A DNA stretch of 49,016 nt, the filler included, from Bipalium vagum (Eukaryota), in the NCBI GenBank assembly GCA_037834085.1. It is 2 parts of 2 records of this genome, joined end to end, with 100 filler letters (N's around TTAATTAATTAA, not from the genome) between each part and the next. Parts side by side here need not be neighbours in the genome. Positions count along the whole stretch, not along the records: positions 1 to 23,498 come from JBBMKC010208376.1; 1 more part is not named here. One strand, written 5' to 3'. The notes below the pieces were generated by a model, which saw only the letters and a program-made list of their open reading frames with translations, was not told where the DNA came from and ran no database searches. Made by a program: the position numbers and the translations under genes. Each line of letters begins with the position of its first letter. The first letter of the stretch is position 1. Shown here in pieces: positions 4,356 to 23,340 of the stretch.

Positions 4356-6100
4356 ATTATTATGTGATCAATTAATAAAAACTTTGTTTATTTAATTAGT
4401 TGTATTTATTTTTTATATATTTCATGTCAAAATAATCCTTTGCCGAAAATTTAATATATAATAAAGATTAAATAAAATAAAATATAAATAATAATAATAA
4501 TTATTATTGTTATTATTATTGTTGTTGTACATAAATTAATACAAAAGTCGTGAAAAAAAAACTAAAAATAGATTTTTTATAAAAAATTATGTATCAAAAG
4601 TTATAATTAGCAAGATATGTATAAAACATATTTAATTTATTATTTTAGTAAAAATTGCTACTAAAAATAATGTAGCTATTAGGAATTACATATAAATACA
4701 ATCAACATTTTTGTTGACTTGCACAAAATAGTCGACATAAAATAAACAGCGCAAATAAACGGCTCAAAAAAATAAAAGCGAAATATTTTGATCACGACAA
4801 ATTCAGAAACAGATAAATCAGACATATTCAAATCACGAAGCCATAATATCAATAACAATACAAATCATCCAAGTAGCTCAAATTATTTACATATAATCAG
4901 GTCAACGATTCACAAATAATTCAATAACAAATGTTATGCTCTATAGCAAGCAATTAATTTTATCTATTATTATTTTCTTTTTCTTTTAATAAATATTTTG
5001 CGTAATTGGTAATTTTTAATAAATTACACAATTACAATTATTTTAAATAACTGAAATCAAAAACCCTCAGTTGGTAATTTTCAATAAATTGCACAACTGT
5101 TTTAATTAATTATCTTATAAATAAATGCTAGGATCTAGCCCTAAAATCATGTAATCCTTTTTGTTATTTCCTCACTTCGGTTGCAGATTTTTGTTTTTCG
5201 CAGTTCACACACTAATTAGGGTGGTGAATTGTCTATCGTTGATATTTTTATCAGTGCGAAAAGATTTCCTTCCTTTAAATAATCCTAAACTCGGGGAAAG
5301 TTTTCTTACAGAGGATTGTTCAAACAGTAATCACTCTTGATTTGTAAAGTTACACAACTGTTTTGTTATTTAGTATCAATAAAGTATATAAAAACAATTT
5401 ATTTTAGTCAATTAAAAATCATAGAAAAAGCACGCTTCCAAAAACCTTCTAACCGTTAAGCTTTTAGTTCGCTCCACTTTTTAAGAGACTTAACAATTTA
5501 ATTATTTGATTGATTATTACCATTTGATTTTTAGTGATTACTTGAGACATTTTGTGATTGTTATTTTAGCAAGTTTTGTTCGTAGTTGTCTTGATTCATT
5601 CATTTGCGTCAAAAGTGAAGGGGTCAGTAAACTTTTCGAGCTAAGTGTTACGACAGTGTTCATTTTAAATAATAGCGTAACAAAATTTAATTTTACACTC
5701 TCAGTCTTGCCTCATTACATTTTCACAAACTACATCTGAAAGTTTATTTTGATCTCAATCCCTTTCTGAACTAAAATTTGAATCCCCTAATATTCTCTAC
5801 CTTAATATCATTTTTTCCTTCCTTCCCCTAATTTCATAAACTATTAACAATAACTTAACCACCATTCGGGAAATTTTTACTTTTTCGAGAAAACCAACTT
5901 AATAATATTTTACAATCTTATTATTGCTACGTTACTAAAATACACTTCGTCGTCCCTTCCTGGTTTCTTTTCTACTCAAAACTAGTACCTTTTCGACGAA
6001 CATATTTTAAATAAGATTTCGATAAAACTGAATGATTTGATTATTCAGATATAAGTAAAAACAAACGAAACAAATTATATTTAATCTATCAATTGAATAT

Positions 6101-9100
6101 TTATTTTCTTTCTTCGAAAGCCTTAGATTTATTCTAAAATTTATTAATAAGACCCAGTAACAAAAAAAAATTACCTGAACATTTTCGCAAAAAGCATTTC
6201 TGGAGATTAAATTTTTCAGTTTTTCATTTTCAGTTTTTAATTGCCTTATTTTCTCTTCCATTTTTTCAAATTGTACCCTCTTTGCTCGATATCGTGCTTT
6301 AAGATCATTGTAGTGATTAAGTAAAGTATCAAATGATTTCAGTCCTTCATTCTGTCGTTCGAGCACCTTTGAATTTTGATTAACTATCGACTTAAGTCTA
6401 TCAAGTTCCTTTTGCTTTTCTATCAACTCGGAAACATTAATCAAATTTTTACTGCCAATACTTGATATTTCAAGTGTCTCAAAACGGGCTTTCAGAGACT
6501 GGTTTTGGAATTTTTCTTCTTCTAAGACCTGATTACCTTTTACAATTTCAGATTCCAGCAATGATACTTTTTCTTTCATCAAATCCATTGAATTTGAAAG
6601 TTCTGAGAACTTACTATAAGATTTTAACAACTGTTGATCCTTATACATCAGTTCATCTTTGGCATAATTTAACGAACTTGTAGCACTTTGTAATTGACTT
6701 TTGAAACTTTCCACAGTTTCATAGGCTTTTCGAATTATGCACTCATTTTTTCCGAACAAACTTTGATACTCGCTAACACAGATATGCAATAATTCCTCAA
6801 CGGACATTTTGTACATTGCTTTCACTTCATTTCCAGAGTTCTTTTCTATGAAATTCTTTCCCAAGAATTCAATGCTTTCTTTCATTCTCAACGCTTCTAT
6901 TGACTGAACAATAATTTCTTTGAGTGTTCTTGTTTCGCATTCAAATGGTTTTACAATTTCATTAATCAAATATTGATTGGATCTCTCATTTTCGAAGTCT
7001 TCAATCAACAAACTTTGTTCAAAGATTTTCTTTTTTAATATTTCAAATTCCAACTTACACTTTTGTAATTCAGTTTTCAATGCTCTCATTGATTCAGTTT
7101 CTCGTTTTGAAAATTTTTCTTTGGACAATCGTTTAAATTCTATTATTTCTTGTTTTTCCGACAATTTCTTTTGTAGATTATCACAAGATAATCGGAGATT
7201 CTTTTCCACCAACTGAAATTCTGCCATTTTACACTGATTGTCCTTCAAAATTTCTTCGATTTCTTCATGGTGTCTTTTTCTAATCAAATTTATGTCATCT
7301 AATTTTCTCTGAACCTCTTCATTTTGAATGACACATCGCCTTGCACAACTGTTATCCACAAAATTTTTAAAATAGTCTATCCTCTGACATTCTAGTTCCG
7401 CAGTTCGAACATTGATTTCGCTTTTTAAATCAATTTTATCCGAATTTAGCATCGCAATTTGATTTCTGAAGTCTTCACGTTCTTTTTCTTTGGTTTCCTT
7501 TAGGGCGTTCAATTCACATTTCAAATTTGCTACAAGACTTTGCAAATCTTCATTTTCTTTATTTGAGGAGACCAAATCGTTATGCAATGTCTCGATAACT
7601 TTAGTTTTGCGGGATATACTTTCCTCGTACTCCATGATTTTCTCTTTTGAACTGCTAATTTCTTCAGACATTTTACTAGCATTTTCTCTAAGAAATATCA
7701 AGTCACTGAGTTCATCGTTAAACTTATTTCTTTCAGTTTTCAATTTTTGAATTTCAGATTGACAATTAAAGAATTTTAACCTGAAAGAATCCAGAAGTTC
7801 CTTAAGTGAATTTTCCGGCTCATTTTCATTATGATTTTTAACTAATTGATCAATACTTTCAAAATTTTCAAAAACTGAAGTTTCCATATATTTTATTGCA
7901 CAAATCAATTCTTTTATTTTATCTAATTCAAAATAAAGCTTTTCATTATCTTCTCTTAAAGTCAACAACTTTTTCTCTATCTCTGCTTTATCTTGCACCA
8001 CAGTTTTAAGATGATCTTTCAATTCAGAATGACTGGCTTCCATCTGAAGTTCATATTCCAATTTTTCAAACATGCACGTTGAATTCAAATCAACATTTTG
8101 GAAATGAACTTTAATTTTTTTAATCAAAATACAACAAAAGTGATAGATAAAATCTTCCAATTTAAAGGAAGATTTATTCATATCCTTAAAATTATTTGAT
8201 AAAAATTGTGTAAAAATGGAGAAAGATTTTTCAACCAAATATTCAAATTTGTCTTTTTCTTCCCATTCCAATTTCTCTAATTTTTCTGATAGCATATCTA
8301 AAATGTTAATATCATCTAACATTTCCAGACTTAAAAGTGATTTATTTTGTTGCGGCAATCTTTTGGAATTTGACAATTTAGAATTTTGTAAATTTGAGAT
8401 GCTCTACAAAATTAATGAACATAAATTCAATATAACACTAGTATATATCTTTAAGAATTTCTACTGTCAAAAAATGGTTTAATGTTTTAAAACTATTAAG
8501 GAATGAAGTAATTTTTTCAAATTTCTTAATTCACTTTTTAAATTAAAATATATTGATAGTTACAAAAAATAATGGTAAAATTTAAATGATCACAATAATT
8601 ATGAGCAAGATAAAAGGTTTATGAAAATGAAAAATAAAATATCAAAATAAACTTTTTCAGATGAATACATATTTTCTTCATTTTTCAAACAAATAGTATC
8701 AATGTTAAACAAGTCCAAATCCAAAATTGAGTCATTCATTGCACTGTTCTTGTTATCAATATCCTCATTTTGATTAATACTTAAACAACTTTGCTTAATA
8801 ATTGAGATTAGTTCAGGAATGGATTCATCATATGAAAGAATTTTTCCACTTTCAATAATTATACTTCTTAAGGAGTTACGATAAACTTCTTCGAAAGTAA
8901 TAAATTCATTCACTTTATAATTAAGTTCGAGGCATTCATTTATTTGCTCTTCAAGATCATTGTTGATTTTATCAATGTATAACTTTGCCTGTTCTAACTC
9001 AGTCGATTTTTTCTCAAGTTCATATTGATTTACAAGTTCTTCAATTCTGAATTCTGCGACTTCTAATTTGTCTCTTACAGAATCCATTTCAATTTGTAAT

Positions 9101-9134
9101 TTATTTTCATTATCAAATCTTTTCATAGTTGGAA
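6101..9134 (-). CDS. Large coiled-coil protein (~900 aa, family not identified). Exons 9134-8653, 8403-6175, 6133-6101; 5' end uncertain (upstream exon or ATG at 9126)
   Basis: Long E/K/L-rich open frames in AT-rich DNA. GT-AG junctions keep frame (SSEK|SISNL; ENVQ|NKSKAFEERK*). The last intron is 41 nt. Confidence 0.8.
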
Positions 9135-9784
9135 CTAAAAATAATTTTAAAATACTCATAATTAACATAAACTAAATCATATTAAAATATATTTCATGTT
9201 AACTTTTCTACTTATATATAAACAAATTCATGAAATTGAAATTTAAATTCATAATGTTAATTTAATTCTTGTCTGATAAAATGACTAATTTTGATTTAAT
9301 TAATATTAAATATAAAATTATTTAATCTTTAAATTAGAAAGTTTTGGTGATTTTAAAACTACCATATTCCTGAGTTACTGAATTTTACATTTTTGTCTTT
9401 GTTAATGTTTACCATACTAATTATCTCTACTTATATCTCTTCATTTTTATATATAAGATATCTAATTTAATTCTCATAATGTAAGTAATACTGAAACAAA
9501 ACTTGATATGTGTGTATCGATTCATTTTTCTTGATTGATAAATTTTCATAAAAAGAAAATTTAATAAAATTGCTTAAAACAATTAAAAACTTAAATATAT
9601 TTTTAAAATTTTTATTTCGGTTTAAATTCCGTAAACAGAGTTTGTTTTAATATTTAATATTTAATTTTGTGAATGAATAAGTTCTAAACGATAATATTTA
9701 TTTGTACAAGCTGAATAAATTTACTTTTTGTTTTATTAGTTAAGCAAATTAAATGTTTGATGAACTTACTTTTCAAACTGTGAA

Positions 9785-13880: not shown

Positions 13881-16800
13881 TAAATAAAAATCTCTTTCTT
13901 GTTATTCGCATTGAGGTTTTCAGTCTTCACTGTATTTAAGGTCTTCGTTTTAGGGTTTCCTGTTTTAGCTTCCTCATGTTGTATCTGACATTGATTACAT
14001 GTATCGCATTTTGGCCTGGACAGCAGATCTGCATTTGTGTGGTCTGTCCCTTTACGGTACTCTAATTGAATATCTAAACTGCTCAAATAATTGATCCACG
14101 TTTGGAACTGGGACGTGATTGACTTCTTTGTGCTTAAAAGTAATAGCTTTTTGGTCTGTTCGCAACAAAAATTTCCTGCCGTACAAAAAATGATTAAAAA
14201 GCTTACAAAAATAGTAAATAGCAAGCAACTCTTTTCTGGTCTCGCAGTAACCCTTTTCGTGGCTATTCAACGTGTGAGATCTACGCTACTATCCGTTCTT
14301 TACCATTATTATCCATCTGCGATAAAATTGCACCAATAGCGTCAAAACTTGCGTCCGTATCAAGAATAGTCTTGTCTTAGATCTGGAAAGCACAGTATTG
14401 GACTTGACATCAGGGCCTTTTTCAAATTCACAAATGCTTCTTCTGCAATTTCATTTCACACAAGCTTTTTATTGACATTTCCACACATGCGTTCCAAAGC
14501 TCTAGCTTTTCTTGCATATTCCTTGATGAATTTCCTATAATAATTGCATATTCCTAGGAAACTTCGTAAACCTTTTTACGCAGTTTGGTTTGTTGAAAGA
14601 TGTAATGGCTTCTATCTTCTGTAGATTCATCTTAATCCCTTTTTGATTTAAAAATTGTCCCAAGAATTTTACTTCTTCTTTTAAAAACTGGCATTTTTCA
14701 GGGTTCACTCGCAATCCAGCTTTTTTTATTTTTTAATACCCTATCCAGCCTTGTGTAATGTTGTTCGATGCTGTCTGAAAATACCAAGATATCATCCAGA
14801 TAAACAATTGTTCCTTTCAAACCACCAACTACTTTATTCATAATCCTTTGAAAAGTCCCTGGAGCAGCTGCTATTTCAAACGGCATGCGATTAAAACAAT
14901 ATTGGCCTGTTTTTGTTGAAAAGGCCGTCTTTTCTTTTGACTCTTCATCCAATTCCACTTGGTAATAGGCGTTTCCTAAATCAATAGAACTGAAATATTT
15001 TGACCCACTTAATTGATCTAGCATTTCATCAAGATTTGGGATTGGAAAAGCCGGTCTCTCTGTTATTGCATTGAGCTGTCTGAAATCCAAGCATAATCTG
15101 ATTTCCTGCTTATCTTTTTTCCACACATATATTAAAGACGTGTTCCACGGTGATTGACATTTCCTAATTATGTCATTCTTATGAAGGTTGTTTATTGTTT
15201 CATTGATCTTGTCTTTTAAATTCATCGGCTGTCTAAATGGTTTAATATTAATAGGATTACTTGTTGTTTCTATGTTATGCCGAGCTAAATGAGTGCATCC
15301 GAAGTCCCATTTATCAGCCATAAAGGCGTCTTCATTTTCTTGAATAATTTTACCTAACTGTGACTTCTGTTCTATTTTCAATGCTGTTAATGTTCGATGT
15401 TGTCGTTCTCCAATGTTTATTTGTCTCCCAAATTTTGCCTCAATATTGCAAATAAATGGTTTTTCTCTGTCTTCTATTTTGTTTATTTGCACTTTCGTAG
15501 TTAAGTTTTCTTGCTTTAATACAAAACCAAACTATCATTGTAATTCTACACATCCTATCGTCAGGAGTAATATTTTTCAGCACAATAAAATTAATTTCTG
15601 CTTGTCTGCCTTCTATTACAACATTTACTGACATTTTCCCATAGTTTCTGATGCGCTGTCACTTGCACATCGTAATCTGTCTTCACATTTTCTTAGTTGA
15701 ATATTACACAATATTTTAGCTATATTACTGCTCATTATATTATTTCTGACCGATGTATCTAATAAACATTCCAACCTCAACTCTTGTATCATTACTGTCA
15801 CACTCGGCCTCCCCTAAATCACATATTATCGCTAACCATATTCACTCATCCAGTATCATATCTATTACTCACCTCACAATTCTCTCTTTTTATAAATCTT
15901 TATATTTTTTCGTTCACCCTGTCATCTTCTCTTCCATCCACGGCCTCCTGGGAATAATCACTGACGATATTTAGTTGATGGCTCCGACTAGCTCCCCGAC
16001 TAGTGGATCCCTGTTGTTTGGGTGTTTCTCATCTTCAGGTATATCACTTCTATAGCATTCATCCTGTTAAAACTTACTCTGTTTCTTGTTGGCATTTCTC
16101 CCTGACTTCTAGATTCGTATCTACGTGAATCGAATTGTGCATAGCATTTTGACATAATGTCCATGTTTTTTGCATCTTAAACAGACAACATTGGGACATG
16201 ATTTTTTATGTCCAGGTTTTCTACACGCGAAAAATTTTCTGTCAGAACATTCTCTACTTAAATGTCGCATTTTGTTGCAAGACCAACAAACAATATCACT
16301 TTGGTCTCTTCACCTGTTAATACTATGGTAGTTACCTGTCATGTGTCTTGATCCTGCAAAATTCTTCGGTACTGTGTGATATTCAGGAATCTTTGTTGTC
16401 TGTACCATCTTCATTTTATTCTGTTTTGTATTCACTGCAGTTTCGGTCAAAATTGATTTTCTCGTTTCCCTTTTGATTAATTACTTCCATTTTTTTCATC
16501 AGAGCTTCAATATCATCCATATTTTTAGTTTCCTCATTTCTACTTCTCGAACCATTTCTTCGTCATTCACGAAGTATAATAACATTCTTGATATTAAATT
16601 TTCTGTGATTTGATACGCCAACGCCTTTTCACTTTCTTCTTTATTATCTTCACGAATGATTGGATATCTTCGTTTCCTCTTCGATATTGTAATAGGTTTT
16701 CCAAATCTGATATCATGTCCACCGGTTCTGCAAAAGCTGGTCGCTATTTAACTTCAAAGCCATCTGCTTTTGAAAATGTTTTTTCATAATCTTCGATGAG

Positions 16801-17189: not shown

Positions 17190-18240
17190 CAGTGGTAAAC
17201 ATTCGTTTAGACGCAGTTAAAATAATTCAAATTTCTTTAAGATATAAAGTATATTATAATTAAATTTTAATTCATCGCAAAGATCTTAAATTAAAAGATG
17301 CATATCAAATGTTTTTGTTATAAGTTTCGTAAAATAAAATCGTTATCATTTGATAAAATGAAATTTAGCAACAAAATTGTGAAACATTCGTTTAGACGTA
17401 GTTGTATTAAAACTGTTGCATTAATCAGAATTTATTTCATTTTGTTTAAATAATCATTACAATTTAAATTTTGAACTATGTAAACTTGTATTATTTGAAA
17501 AATAATTAATTTTAATTCAAATCTTTTCAGTATATTATCAATGCCAAAAGGTACTTATCTCAGTTTAGAAGAACAGATAAAAATACAAATTTACAAGAAA
17601 GATAATCTTTCAAATAGGATTATAGCTTCGAAAATTGGTAGATCCGTAAAAGCTTTTGTGATGAAAGGTGATAAATATGGAATAAAAAAACAATAGGAAA
17701 TACAAAGCTGTCGACGCGGAACAAGAATCAATTAAAAACAGAAGCAACCAAAACCATTTGACTAGTAAACAAATTATACGAAAACTAGATCTGCCGGTCA
17801 GTCCACAACATGTCGCTCGTGTGTTTAGGTCTGAACCCAATATTAAATGGAAGACTTAATCCAATCCATATTCAAAAGCGATTACACTTTGCCGAAAATT
17901 ATATGAATTGGAAATCTGTCATCTTTTCGGATGAAAAAGTTCAATCTGGATGGCTAAAAAAGGAAAATCTTTGGGGCATATTAGCTTCCAAAGTTTATGC
18001 TAATGGAAGACAATTTCAAAGTATTTTCCATCTCCAAAGACATATAAAAGAGTGCTGAAACGAAATTGACAATTCAATATTGAAAAATTTAGCTATGTCA
18101 ATGCCAAAAAGAAATTTTAATTTGATTAAAGCACAAAGAAAAAATATCCCTAATTAAACAGGCTTTAATTGTATTTTATTAATAAAACATCATTGCGTCT
18201 AAACTAATGTTTCGACTTTTCTGTGAATTTTTTACATTTT
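17190..18240 (+). mobile_element. Tc1/mariner (Tc3-like) DNA transposon, internally deleted; transposase pseudogene at 17541-18156
   Basis: TA|CAGTGG terminus. AAACATTCGTTTAGACG occurs at ~17197 and ~17382 and inverted at ~18196-18212. Translates MPKGTYLSLEEQIKI..LSNRIIASKIGRS, WKSVIFSDEK and SMPKR. Confidence 0.9.
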
Positions 18241-19061
18241 TAAATCTATATAAACCATATTGAGTAATTTATTACAACAGTTTTCTGGGTTAATTTATTA
18301 ATGGTAAATTAATATTTATTAATTACATAGGACATTTTGAAATACATTCTTTACAGGTAGCTCTATCTTAATATTAATGACAGTACATGAATACAGATCA
18401 CAGAAATATTGGTTTGACTCACGTGTACTTGTAGCTCACCTTTATGTTAAAATGGAATATTTATAAATAAATTGGTCTCCACGTTTTCCTTTAAGTTTAT
18501 AACATCAAACATACAAAAAACCAGTTACTATCATAGTCCGCTGGCTATCTAGTAATCTTTGGGATACCATATTTTGTTTTGATCGTGGAGTCTTTCTAAC
18601 AACCTATTCATCATAAAAACTCAGAAATTACTCCTAATATTTAAACTGATTAATTTTATATTTTAGGAATTTTCTTCAACGAATTTAAATCCTTTCGTAG
18701 AAAAAAATTGATACAATGATACACCAACATATACCTAATAAAGAATCTTTCTATATTCGGTCGAAATATTAAATTCTGATTAATTATTAAATTGACTAGA
18801 ACATTTAATGATTAATAAATAGGACTGAGAGAAGAATACCATATTAACTGACTATCTAATCTTTCACATTACCAAATAAAATGTGCTAAAATAAGTACAC
18901 TACTTTAAAAAAATAATTAGATAAATTTCATGAATATCGACCATGTTCTATTTTAATTTTGTTTACCTTAAAAATCAAGAAAATAAAAGAGTAATATAAC
19001 ATAATACTATAGTATAAATTTTAAAAATTTATTGACAAAATTACGAAAGCCAGAATGACAC

Positions 19062-19626
19062 TTAATTTGAGAACTTAATTAATTCCTTCGGAGGAGGCTT
19101 TATAGGAATCCTAGTTTGCTCAAAATCCAATGCATTAAACGCTTCAATTTCTGATTCTGATAGGTCATCTAAGTGTGAAAATATTTCATCATCGCCATAA
19201 AAAGCACTCAAGGTATTCTGAAAAATACTCGGGCCGTCTGTAATATCAATATTTTAATTATTTATAGATAGTTTCTTCTATTTCAGTATTCTTTGTGAAA
19301 AAATCCTGCAAATTAACCTAAGATTATCATAAAGTTAAGAATTAATAAAAAATAGTAATTAAAATTTTGAATTTAAAACAAGTCTTATTTTAGATATCAC
19401 TGGAGCTACTTGAATTTTAATGACTATCAAAATATGCATAAATAAAAAATACTGTTATACGACGGACCACAAGCAGAAGTTGGCATACGATTGTCTAATT
19501 CAAAATATTTTTGCTAATTATATAAAACTAAAAACCTAATTTTAAAGCAGGATTAAAATGTTTGTATCTGCAATTGGGACTTTTGCAACATCCAGCCAGA
19601 TAATATTTGCATAATTGAACAGACAT
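19062..19626 (-). CDS. NUP42: NUP42/NUPL2 (hCG1)-like nucleoporin, minimal form. Simplest model: exons 19626-19536, 19494-19453, 19237-19062 (102 aa)
   Basis: N-terminal CCCH finger MSVQLCKYYLAGCCKSPNCRYKH. The C-terminus LSESEIEAFNALDFEQTRIPIKPPPKELI resembles the Gle1-binding tail of Nup42. GT-AG junctions are in frame. Confidence 0.75.
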
Positions 19627-20419
19627 TAATTACACAAATAATTTTTATTTAATAATTATCAATAAATATTAAAACAACTTCAGTTTCTCATTTTATTTTA
19701 ATTTTTAAATTAATTTAAAGATTTAAATTATTATTTGAATTATTCATTTTGTTAATTTTAAAATGTTAAAGAAAATATGGTTTTATTAAAAAGTTTCAGA
19801 TTAAAAGAAATTAAGTTAATTTTATCAAACTGATATAATATTCTATATGAAGAATTTTAATCTGGATTTATCAACATTAAGATTAAAACTATTCTGATGA
19901 TTCACCAATGGACAGAATAGAGTCAATGTCCTAAAGTTGTTATCGGGATTGTGAAACTCATTTTAGAAGATTTAGAAGATTGGATACGTGTAATGGAATT
20001 TTGAAAACTCTTTTTAATATACATTTTATTTACAAAGTCAACCATCAGTGATATGTACTTTTTGAGACATTTTGGTAAGAAGGATGAACAATTTCAAAAA
20101 AACTTCTCAAACAACTTTTCAAAAATTAAATATTATGAAGTACTTTTTCGTGTAAAAATAATATTTTTAAACTTAGAAGACAAAAAATGTTTATTTTTAT
20201 CTTATGATTTTGAGTAGGCTTGTCTCACAAAACCCATTACTATTATAAAGTGTGATCAATGTAATAAATTCAAATGACATTCTACATCAAATCGACGATT
20301 TCTATTTTTTATTGTCTACGTTAGTAGTGAAGAAATGGCTGCGACCAACACCCAAACCCCAAAAATTTAGTTTTCATTTTTTCAATCTCCTTTCAAACTT
20401 TTAAACCGATTTTTTCTCA

Positions 20420-20748: not shown

Positions 20749-21650
20749 TTATTGGGTTTACCAAAACACTCATCCGTCCCAAATGAAAATTGTAAAAGGA
20801 TGTTTAAAATAATAAGAATAATAATTAAATAACAATTTTTGCTAATTAAAAAGTACAAAGTTAATTAAAAAGGGAAAAAAGGCAATAATTTATTTTTTGT
20901 TGGGATCTAATCTTGACAATGGCGAACCTAAATTGCCAAGATTAGATCAGGGTCTGCAAGGAGGGACCGATTTAGGATTAATGATCCTAAAAGGAAATAT
21001 TGACATTTCCCATTAATAAAATTAGTCGTCGACAAAAATACTGTATAAGAAGAAGGATTCTACCATAAATTAGCCCACAATCACGAGATCAACATTTTGA
21101 AGAAACTTTTTAGAAGACGACAATTTCAAGATGTTCGTTGAGATTCAAGCCAGACGACAGATTCAAGATATTCGGAAGACTATAATTCTGAAGTATTTTT
21201 AATGCATTTGGTCTTGGGATTGGGTTTGAGTTCCCCACCAGAGGGCTATTTCTGAGCAACTGTAAAGGCTCAGCTAATAGTCCGGGAAACCTAAACGAAG
21301 ATAATTCGTATGCTTATTTCATTTTTTTATTTTCACCTTAATATTATTTTTGGTTAAAACTAAGTAATTTGATTATATTATTTCATATTAACTATTGATT
21401 AACTTTAAGTATTTATTTGTGTTCTTAACTCGAATTTGGTTAACTATTTTGTTTTGATTGATTATTAAAGATAATTGCAGATGTGTCAGATCTTATTGTG
21501 ATTCATTTTCTCTTAAGTTTGACGATTTTAGTGTAATTGTTATCATTGTATGTGTTTTAAGGTGTAAATACAAATTATTGCTTTAATGATTGTTGTTATT
21601 TTGCACCATCTTAGAGTAGGAATCAGGTTTAAAGTTTGAATTAGTGAACA
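20749..21650 (+). mobile_element. 5' LTR of a gypsy element (structured-LTR family)
   Basis: The 5' half matches the 3685 and 40971 copies; the 3' half matches 440-885. Ends TAGTGAACA, 7 nt before a PBS. Confidence 0.8.
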
Positions 21651-21657
21651 TATTTAT

Positions 21658-21682
21658 TGGTGAGCGGCCGACGTGATTCGAA
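21658..21682 (+). promoter_or_regulatory. Primer-binding site complementary to the tRNA-Trp 3' end
   Basis: TGGTGAGCGGCCGACGTGATTCGAA versus the reverse complement of the eukaryotic tRNA-Trp 3' end, TGGTGACCCCGACGTGATTCGAA. Confidence 0.75.
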
Positions 21683-23340
21683 AATCGGTTGGTAATTGTG
21701 AAACTGTGTGGGTGATTGTGTGTTATTGGTCTTTGTCTAGTTTGCGTGACTTGTTTTGAATTTGTAAGCCCTGAATACCGTTTTGATAAATTTTTGGAAC
21801 TTTTAGTAATGGCCGCCGAGGCATAGAAGTTGTTTATAGTGTTTCAGGAAGAAATCAGTAAGCGTCCAGAAAACTAATCTGGCTAGTGGAAAGAAATCAG
21901 TTACAGATATTCGAGGAGTTATAACCAGAAGTTTGACAAAGATAATTAAAGAGAAAGGTGTAGAAGAAAATCATTTAGAAATCTAGGAGAATAACCGAGA
22001 AGGAACATTAGAAGACATTAATACAGGTGTTAAAGAGATAAATATAATGGATTAAGAATTCGTAAAATTACCGGTAGGATATTTAATGGGGAACCAACAG
22101 AATTCGCAGATTTTATGGCTGAGTATTGGCAAGTGACAGAAGCGTTAGGATATGATGAGGCACGGATGGTAAGAAGATTACCGAATCATTTGAGTGGAAT
22201 GGCACAGAGTGCAAATTATGACAAACGTAGCAAACAAAAGTTGGGTCGAAGTGGTTAAGGAATTAACGAAGAAGCTAATTTCGGGAGATATAGGTAGAGT
22301 AAATAGGAAGCAAGGAGCAGAAGAGTCAGTAGGCAAATATGCGTATCAAGTAGAATTATTAGCACAGAGAGCATTCGGATCCAAGAAACAGTGGACACAA
22401 ACAATTAAAAAGATAGTGGAAGATCAGTTTTTCATTGGAATGTTAAAATCATTAAGAACAGCGTTAGGATTGGCAGATTATAAAATTTTCGAAGAGTTAC
22501 TGCAGAAAGCACGAAAAACAAAAATGAATATTAAAGGAAACCCAACGATGATTTGTGAAATAGGAGCAGTTAGAAGAGACAGCAATAGACTAGAAACATG
22601 GAAATAAAGCGAAATGAGACCAATGAGCAAATAGTAAAGAATATTATATTGTCAGAAGCCAGGGAATTTAACGAAGCAATGTGGATCTAGAAAATCAGAA
22701 TTTTGTCCAGGTCCAGCTAGAAATCAGAGGACAAATACAGATATTGTTTGTAGAAACTGTAATGAAACAGGTCATTTGGCAGAAAAGTGTAAAATAAAAA
22801 TTTTTAGGTATTGCAAGAAAAGAGAACATTTGGAAGAGACGTGTTGGGCAAAGAATTCACCTCAAAGAGATAATGTAAACATCGATGAGAAAGTACAATG
22901 CTTTTAATGTAAGGCGTATGAACACATGGTGAAATCTTGTCTTAGTGAAAAGAGATCACAAAAAGTGATTAAAAGGTTGGCATTGGGTAATGAAAAAATA
23001 ATCATGGTAAGAGATATGGAAGACAATAACGAAACCGAAAAATTGAGGGCAGAAAACGGAGATCCAGAGTAATTGGACACGAAATGGTATCAATGATCCA
23101 AATACAGGAAAATGAAATTAAGATATTAACTAGAAACGATTCACTGAAAGAAAAAGTAGATGTTAACGGGAACGTAATAATGGCATTAGTGGATTTGGAT
23201 GAAGAAGAATGTAATACACTTCCTGGGGTACTAGAACGGGAATTCGCAAGGACCTCTAGAAACAAAAACAGAATTATGGATTTGTTAAGTCAGGTAACGG
23301 AACAGGCGGTCACTGCAATGATGCCTGGGAGAAGTCAAAG
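21683..23340 (+). mobile_element. Decayed gypsy Gag region with about four zinc knuckles, truncated
   Basis: Retrotransposon gag motif QGAEESVGKYAYQVELLAQRAF..EDQFFIG. Knuckles YCQKPGNLTKQC, CRNCNETGHLAEKC, YCKKREHLEETC and CF*CKAYEHMVKSC. Confidence 0.85.

What the first reader, a model, noticed from the sequence alone, without database searches (positions are those of the whole stretch)
19062..19626. Hidden miniature Nup42 with no FG repeats
Seen: a CCCH finger and a Gle1-binding-type tail lie within 565 bp, and no FG-repeat sequence lies between them. Established: Nup42/NUPL2 is normally about 400 aa with an FG domain and supports Gle1-Dbp5 mRNA export. Exon-like segments at 19408-19379 and 19317-19270 exist, but the latter lacks a GT donor and runs into a stop. 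The locus may be a truly minimal nucleoporin, alternatively spliced, or a decaying duplicate.
Basis: partly seen in the sequence, partly recalled or inferred. Interest (0 to 1): 0.7.

Follow-up and report, generated by a model that had tools for sequence, protein, structure and literature searches.

The report
Miniature FG-free Nup42 in a flatworm
The only copy found in this animal (likely a planarian flatworm) of the nuclear-pore gene Nup42 keeps just a zinc finger and the tail that likely binds the mRNA-export factor Gle1 and has no FG repeats; a glass sponge has a similar short form, and one missing splice site leaves open whether this copy still works.

Summary
On the minus strand a CCCH finger (19611-19558), the only such motif in six frames of the window, lies 565 bp from the end of a tail that matches the human NUP42 Gle1-binding motif (E 6.6e-5). 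No Phe-Gly codon pair lies between them. Four protein searches of the genome found no second Nup42; Nup98 keeps 25 FG. The central Amo1_N domain is missing too. Against 78 introns inferred from this genome (all GT-AG, 63 of 40-70 nt), the locus reads as five exons (125 aa) whose fourth donor lacks GT. Fully canonical in-frame skips give 77-107 aa (best 102 aa); retaining that intron gives 73 aa without the tail. No RNA could be tested. FG-free finger-plus-tail NUP42 is not unique: three proteins of 177-181 aa, one from the glass sponge Oopsacas minuta, have it, and yeast exports mRNA without the Nup42 FG domain. Verdict: likely a working, naturally shrunken Nup42 (0.65); a recently broken gene is the main rival (0.2). 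New variant of a known protein, modest interest. The scan's index showed no earlier Nup42 note.

The parts
19536..19626 (-). Exon 1: ATG and divergent CCCH zinc finger (motif 19611-19558); 91 nt, ends in phase 1
19495..19535 (-). Intron 1, 41 nt, GT-AG (inferred)
   Evidence: donor 21st, acceptor 31st percentile of 78 genome introns; GC 0.15
19453..19494 (-). Exon 2, 42 nt linker (inferred)
   Evidence: coding score +8.9 in the model frame, GC 0.45
19409..19452 (-). Intron 2, 44 nt, GT-AG (acceptor 19409 weak; 19406 is an in-frame alternative); its donor can also pair in frame with 19238
19380..19408 (-). Exon-like piece 3, 29 nt (weak: coding score +2.3, donor at 19379 in the 3rd percentile)
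19318..19379 (-). Intron 3, 62 nt, GT-AG (inferred)
   Evidence: GC 0.13, acceptor 44th percentile
19278..19317 (-). Exon-like piece 4, about 40 nt, with no GT donor; 3' boundary inferred from phase and composition
   Evidence: coding score +6.0 in frame, -11.3 and -7.9 in the other frames
19238..19277 (-). Intron-like 40 nt with a good acceptor but no GT at its start; holds the in-frame stop at 19260-19258
   Evidence: GC 0.15, acceptor 50th percentile
19062..19237 (-). Last exon: Gle1-binding motif (about 19199-19074) and stop 19064-19062; second in-frame acceptor at 19218
19028..19033 (-). AATAAA, possible poly(A) signal about 30 nt after the stop (common in AT-rich DNA; weak)

Best explanation
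This locus is the only Nup42 (NUPL2/Amo1) gene found in the genome, and it likely makes a protein of about 100-125 residues: an N-terminal CCCH finger, a short linker and the Gle1-binding motif, with no Amo1_N domain and no FG repeats. Inferred: splicing, expression, Gle1 binding. For splicing I commit to the all-canonical form exon 1-exon 2-last exon (102 aa), with pieces 3 and 4 (69 nt, three times 23) as exons of an older 125-aa form that became skippable when the fourth donor lost its GT.
For: Tail matches NUP42 GBM (profile E 3e-12 human, 1.6e-5 yeast) and keeps 9 of the 10 GBM columns invariant in 10 homologues, the tenth Y to F as in human (mapped by eye), including the two Phe equivalent to yeast F409 and F414, the latter needed for Gle1 binding (PMC5998080 section 8). 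Finger is N-terminal and Nup42-like and the only one in the window. Single locus in searches with the tail, the finger, a 440-aa mollusc NUP42 and the 177-aa sponge protein (the 3 other finger hits have no GBM). Introns are at the genome's modal size, so nothing long can hide in them. 67 in-frame GT/GC-AG paths join finger to tail, 29 GT-only, none with FG; best 102 aa. Precedent: 3 of 17 hits are finger+GBM proteins of 177-181 aa without Amo1_N or FG outside the finger. Yeast: GBM alone localises and stabilises Gle1; FG deletion leaves export intact. Nup98 here has 25 FG.
Against: The five-exon pattern, with all four introns of modal size and pieces 3 and 4 scoring best in the predicted frame, needs a donor that is not there; 78 of 78 inferred introns are GT-AG, so a non-GT donor is unlikely, and retention of the last intron would give 73 aa without the tail. 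The skip needs a 215-nt intron (only 15 of 78 exceed 70 nt). The finger is degenerate: one residue short, lacks a Gly invariant in 10 of 10 homologues, below all Pfam cut-offs. The GBM has Thr for a near-invariant Gly. Many housekeeping genes occur in pairs in this assembly, so a sister copy may have been missed; first looks scored only 1-9 candidates. No flatworm orthologue was found to confirm the short form.
Confidence: 0.65

Rival explanations
1. A naturally short (125-aa) Nup42 gene that broke recently: the fourth donor lost its GT, the short intron is retained, and the product (73 aa, no tail) is degraded or useless. The animal lives without Nup42.
For: Missing donor in a genome with 78 of 78 GT-AG introns; retention product 73 aa; degenerate finger; Nup42 is described as non-essential in yeast (10.64898/2026.02.10.705189). 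Short-intron genomes tend to retain an intron when a donor is lost (my knowledge).
Against: In-frame canonical skips exist with mid-range splice sites (donor 19452 36th, acceptor 19238 50th percentile); GBM exon is intact with its key residues; no other lesion seen. Even here the FG-free form is real and older than the break.
Confidence: 0.2
2. All five exons are used (125 aa), through a non-GT donor near 19277 or through another allele that still has GT.
For: Phases close exactly (91+42+29+40+176 = 378 nt, one stop); piece 4 scores +6.0, reached by 12 of 255 intron windows at 5 or more.
Against: No non-GT donor among 78 inferred introns (the one non-GT call and two 33-nt calls were dropped as a coding insertion of Cdc34-type E2s, my reading); no variant contig at this place in X1 (contigs drop variants). 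The protein's mechanism would be the same as in the best explanation.
Confidence: 0.08
3. A decaying duplicate whose full-length FG-bearing sister is missing from, or was missed in, the fragmented assembly.
For: 13 reciprocal pairs among 50 DEAD-box loci and 10 among 50 E2 loci at 67-87% identity; 272,664 contigs.
Against: No second GBM; no Amo1_N match (one spurious hit, E 0.08, two stops); clean small-intron structure with no trace of a deletion; GBM conserved.
Confidence: 0.05
4. Finger and tail are unrelated pieces, or the assembly collapsed a long FG region.
For: The finger alone scores below Pfam cut-offs.
Against: Only finger motif in 49 kb, same strand, right order; one X1 contig spans the locus without a gap.
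Confidence: 0.02

Closest known systems
Human NUP42 / NUPL2 / hCG1 and S. cerevisiae Nup42 (Gle1-binding motif, PDB 6B4F, 6B4E; Pfam NUP42_C PF27899)
   Same: C-terminal GBM with the core Phe, Leu and Pro-rich end; N-terminal CCCH finger as in animal NUP42.
   Different: About a quarter of the length; no FG repeats; no Amo1_N (PF27634), which 61-100% of members of the large NUP42/Amo1 Atlas clusters carry; finger one residue short.
Oopsacas minuta NUP42 (KAI6652853.1 / UniRef A0AAV7JVR9, 177 aa) and two unnamed relatives P0006, P0007
   Same: Finger + linker + GBM, no Amo1_N, no FG outside the finger.
   Different: Linker about 105-110 aa against about 25-50 here; canonical finger; a distant phylum, so the shortening is likely independent (inference; no tree built).
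FG-poor NUP42 of 336-364 aa (Lycorma delicatula P0016; unnamed P0017-P0019)
   Same: Finger and GBM kept, FG cut to 2-3 outside the finger.
   Different: They keep Amo1_N.
Engineered yeast nup42-deltaFG and GBM-only constructs
   Same: Export survives loss of the FG domain (PMC2064648); residues 397-430 suffice for pore localisation (PMC5998080).
   Different: Laboratory alleles; yeast Nup42 FG loss is harmful when combined with other cytoplasmic FG deletions (PMC5998080 section 8).

Membership tests
Nup42/NUPL2/Amo1 | C-terminal Gle1-binding motif (NUP42_C) | tested here: met
   best genome hit of P0015 and P0008. The PF27899 model itself is not in the library on hand.
Nup42/NUPL2/Amo1 | N-terminal CCCH finger (animal, plant, most fungal forms) | tested here: met
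   Motif present with three Cys and His in reach, but divergent and under Pfam cut-offs.
Nup42/NUPL2/Amo1 | Central Amo1_N domain (usual; absent also in the sponge-type short forms) | tested here: not met
   No room in 565 bp; no match with P0004 1-118 or P0015.
FG-nucleoporins | FG-repeat domain | tested here: not met
   0 FG codon pairs in any frame; so it is a Nup42 homologue but not an FG-nucleoporin.
Nup42/NUPL2/Amo1 | Sole orthologue in the genome | tested here: inconclusive
   One locus; assembly fragmented, completeness not given.
Nup42/NUPL2/Amo1 | Expressed as a spliced mRNA that includes the GBM exon | not testable with these tools
   No RNA holder listed.
Nup42/NUPL2/Amo1 | [quoted passage not shown] | not tested

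The most novel reading that the evidence does not exclude
Planarians have cut Nup42 down to a working 100-aa finger-plus-Gle1-motif adaptor, the shortest natural form seen here, independently of glass sponges; two lineages converging on the same remainder would mark the CCCH finger, whose role is unexplained, as the second indispensable part of animal Nup42, and splicing across the donor-less exon could switch between tail-bearing and tail-less products.
Probability: 0.3. Interest if true: 0.55.

Novelty: new variant of a known kind. Interest (0 to 1): 0.36.

Why it matters
If it works, it is a natural deletion experiment: it shows that an animal pore can do without both the FG repeats and the Amo1_N domain of Nup42 while keeping the finger and the Gle1 motif, and planarian RNAi makes the finger's role testable. 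It confirms rather than overturns yeast genetics, and a sponge precedent sits in UniRef, so the gain is for nuclear-pore evolution specialists. Short multi-exon genes like this are easily missed and may be scored as gene loss.

Tried and rejected
No RNA holder listed: no evidence either way. Gle1 by Pfam PF07817: 0 candidates, control silent, uninformative. DDX19/Dbp5: not recognised among the 50 of 59 DEAD matches that I fetched (58 of 164 candidates were scored); L120 proved eIF4A-like; a recalled motif pattern found only a DDX3-like gene; absence is not shown. Single-sequence search of the tail: 0 of 30 candidates. Short-protein search: 2 of 93 candidates, neither with a finger family. P0001 (top phmmer hit, 5066 aa) is a repeat-driven match outside the motif and was dropped; P0009 (112 aa, no finger) was not counted as a short form. 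L050 rejected as spurious. AlphaFold of the tail alone: pLDDT 64, pTM 0.31, no Foldseek match at E 0.001: uninformative for a motif that folds on its partner. Atlas search for clusters lacking Amo1_N and FG: no usable hit. Changed genetic code considered and rejected: TAA, TAG and TGA all interrupt the frames and long ORFs read under code 1. U12 intron considered: no ATATCC/GTATCC donor seen at the place (by eye). dN/dS not possible: no near orthologue. No complex job: no Gle1 in hand. Paper searches listed nothing on an FG-free natural Nup42 or on flatworm Nup42, and search 63 nothing on non-canonical planarian donors (top 10-20 listings only; subscription journals are not held).

Full report
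Setting. The window packs two stretches; the finding lies in the first, G000:C208376, same coordinates, GC 28%. The genome is 441 Mb in 272,664 contigs. I take the animal for a planarian: the 18S copy read looks triclad to me (recalled, not tested by a tool), and two earlier notes on this genome say the same.

Observation. On the minus strand the ATG at 19626 opens a CCCH motif at 19611-19558, the only such motif in six frames of the window. It scores E 0.0014 on Pfam zf-C3H1, under the cut-off, and aligns with the N-terminal fingers of two full-length Nup42. Its spacing is one residue short and it lacks a Gly invariant in 10 of 10 homologues. The ORF 19253-19065 matches the human NUP42 Gle1-binding motif (GBM) at E 6.6e-5 and yeast Nup42 at 0.078. 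The four next-best of five phmmer hits among 1.84 billion representatives are Nup42 tails; three are 351-519-aa FG proteins. Mapped by eye through, the tail keeps 9 of 10 invariant GBM columns and both Phe equivalent to yeast F409 and F414; F414D abolishes Gle1 binding in yeast (PMC5998080, section 8 read). No Phe-Gly codon pair occurs in any minus frame between ATG and stop. One contig of DNA run X1 covers 18500-20300 without a difference; X1 may be the assembly's source, so this is not independent.

Copy number. DNA search: one full match plus 16 AT-rich partial matches upstream of the gene. Tail: 1 match of 2 candidates. Finger: 1 of 1. Full-length mollusc NUP42 P0015: 1 of 1, this locus. 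Sponge P0008: 4 matches of 9 candidates, best this locus; the other three are finger proteins without a GBM in the fetched loci. An Amo1_N query gave one spurious hit. Caveat: first looks are loose, the assembly is fragmented, and many housekeeping genes come in pairs. FG repeats are not lost in general: the Nup98 ORF holds 25.

Splicing. To learn this genome's rules I inferred 12 introns from 30 DEAD-box loci by comparison of paralogues (the best GT-AG placement scored within 3 points of the best free placement in all 12) and 69 from 31 E2 loci with a profile aligner that allowed any ends at a 9-bit cost each (4 loci gave no intron). I dropped 3 calls under 40 nt, one of them non-GT, as the coding insertion of Cdc34-type E2s (recalled). 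The remaining 78 are all GT-AG, 40 nt or longer, 63 of 40-70 nt, 7 of 71-250, 8 longer; a frame-keeping GT-AG pair arises by chance in 293 of 13,200 trials; internal exons go down to 32 nt. The method leans towards GT-AG and alignments that stop early could hide exceptions. Against this, the locus reads as exons of 91, 42, 29, 40 and 176 nt with introns of 41, 44, 62 and 40 nt, closing to 125 aa with one stop. Exon-like pieces score positive only or best in the predicted frame and intron-like pieces strongly negative (the intron model was trained on the same introns used for the null). The fourth intron-like piece has a good acceptor but no GT; a one- or two-base change could have removed one (inference). 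Enumerating GT/GC-AG paths gives 67 in-frame joins of finger to tail, 29 GT-only, 77-107 aa, none with FG and none using piece 4; the best is exon 1-exon 2-last exon, 102 aa. Retention of the last intron gives 73 aa without the tail. Which happens cannot be told without RNA. Either way no FG or Amo1_N domain can be encoded here.

Relatives. A tail profile found 17 proteins of 112 aa or more among 5,285 candidates, 3 of them its own members; the sample is biased to tails that share exact words. Three (P0006, P0007, P0008; 177-181 aa) have finger + GBM, no Amo1_N and no FG outside the finger; P0008 is Oopsacas minuta, named NUP42 by UniRef. They share 48-51% identity, so the short form is conserved there; that P0006 and P0007 are sponge relatives is inference. 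Four more (336-364 aa) keep Amo1_N with 2-3 FG outside the finger. Large Atlas clusters mostly carry Amo1_N. No flatworm orthologue turned up, so I cannot say how far the short form extends.

Mechanism. In yeast and human the GBM folds onto Gle1's C-terminal domain, raises its melting point by 13-24 degrees, and yeast residues 397-430 suffice for pore localisation (PMC5998080, sections 7 and 8 and passages; its supplementary notes and alignments were not visible, and may list short homologues). The cytoplasmic FG domains of Nup159 and Nup42 are not needed for mRNA export, whereas their non-FG domains are (PMC2064648, passages), though loss is harmful in combination. Nup42 is non-essential, and Gle1 leaves the pore in heat-shocked deletion cells (10.64898/2026.02.10.705189, passages). 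Passages of 10.1101/2021.10.26.465790, PMC8311971 and PMC8421043 added only context; Adams 2017 and Kendirgi 2005 were not held. The best reading is therefore a bare Gle1 stabiliser and anchor; binding, location and expression are inferred. Gle1 and DDX19 were not found in this assembly by weak searches.

Verdict. Real feature; a Nup42 homologue that fails the FG-nucleoporin test; a new variant with a database precedent in a glass sponge. Working short gene 0.65 (0.73 with the five-exon variant), recently broken 0.2, duplicate or artefact 0.07. Interest 0.36.

Noticed in passing
G000, loci L020-L049, L051-L100, L103-L122: Many housekeeping genes come in pairs at 67-87% nucleotide identity (13 reciprocal pairs among 50 DEAD loci, 10 among 50 E2 loci), some with very different GC3 (0.59 against 0.24): an old genome doubling, a hybrid, or two related animals in one assembly.
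   Followed up: partly
P0006, P0007, P0008: A conserved 177-181-aa FG-free, Amo1_N-free NUP42 in Oopsacas minuta and two unnamed relatives; I found no paper on it.
   Followed up: partly
L010-L017: 22 matches to eukaryotic 18S, all far below full score; the best copy is AT-drifted and looks like a pseudogene.
   Followed up: no
L120:405-1599: Divergent eIF4A/eIF4AIII-like helicase with an insertion before motif VI of the kind I recall from Dbp5/DDX19.
   Followed up: partly
window 33129-33743 +: Open frame of 204 aa with a weak histone-fold hit (Bromo_TP_like E 0.055); possibly a short TAF8-like gene.
   Followed up: no
window 26809-28386 +: GC-rich TRAF-like gene (RING, zf-TRAF, MATH).
   Followed up: no
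window 21640-23330 +; 14698-15531 -; 17540-18100: Broken gag-like, reverse-transcriptase-like and transposase-like relics flank the gene (labels by eye).
   Followed up: no
window 6007-9171 -: Long coiled-coil gene (798-aa and 190-aa frames) with no Pfam hit over cut-off.
   Followed up: no
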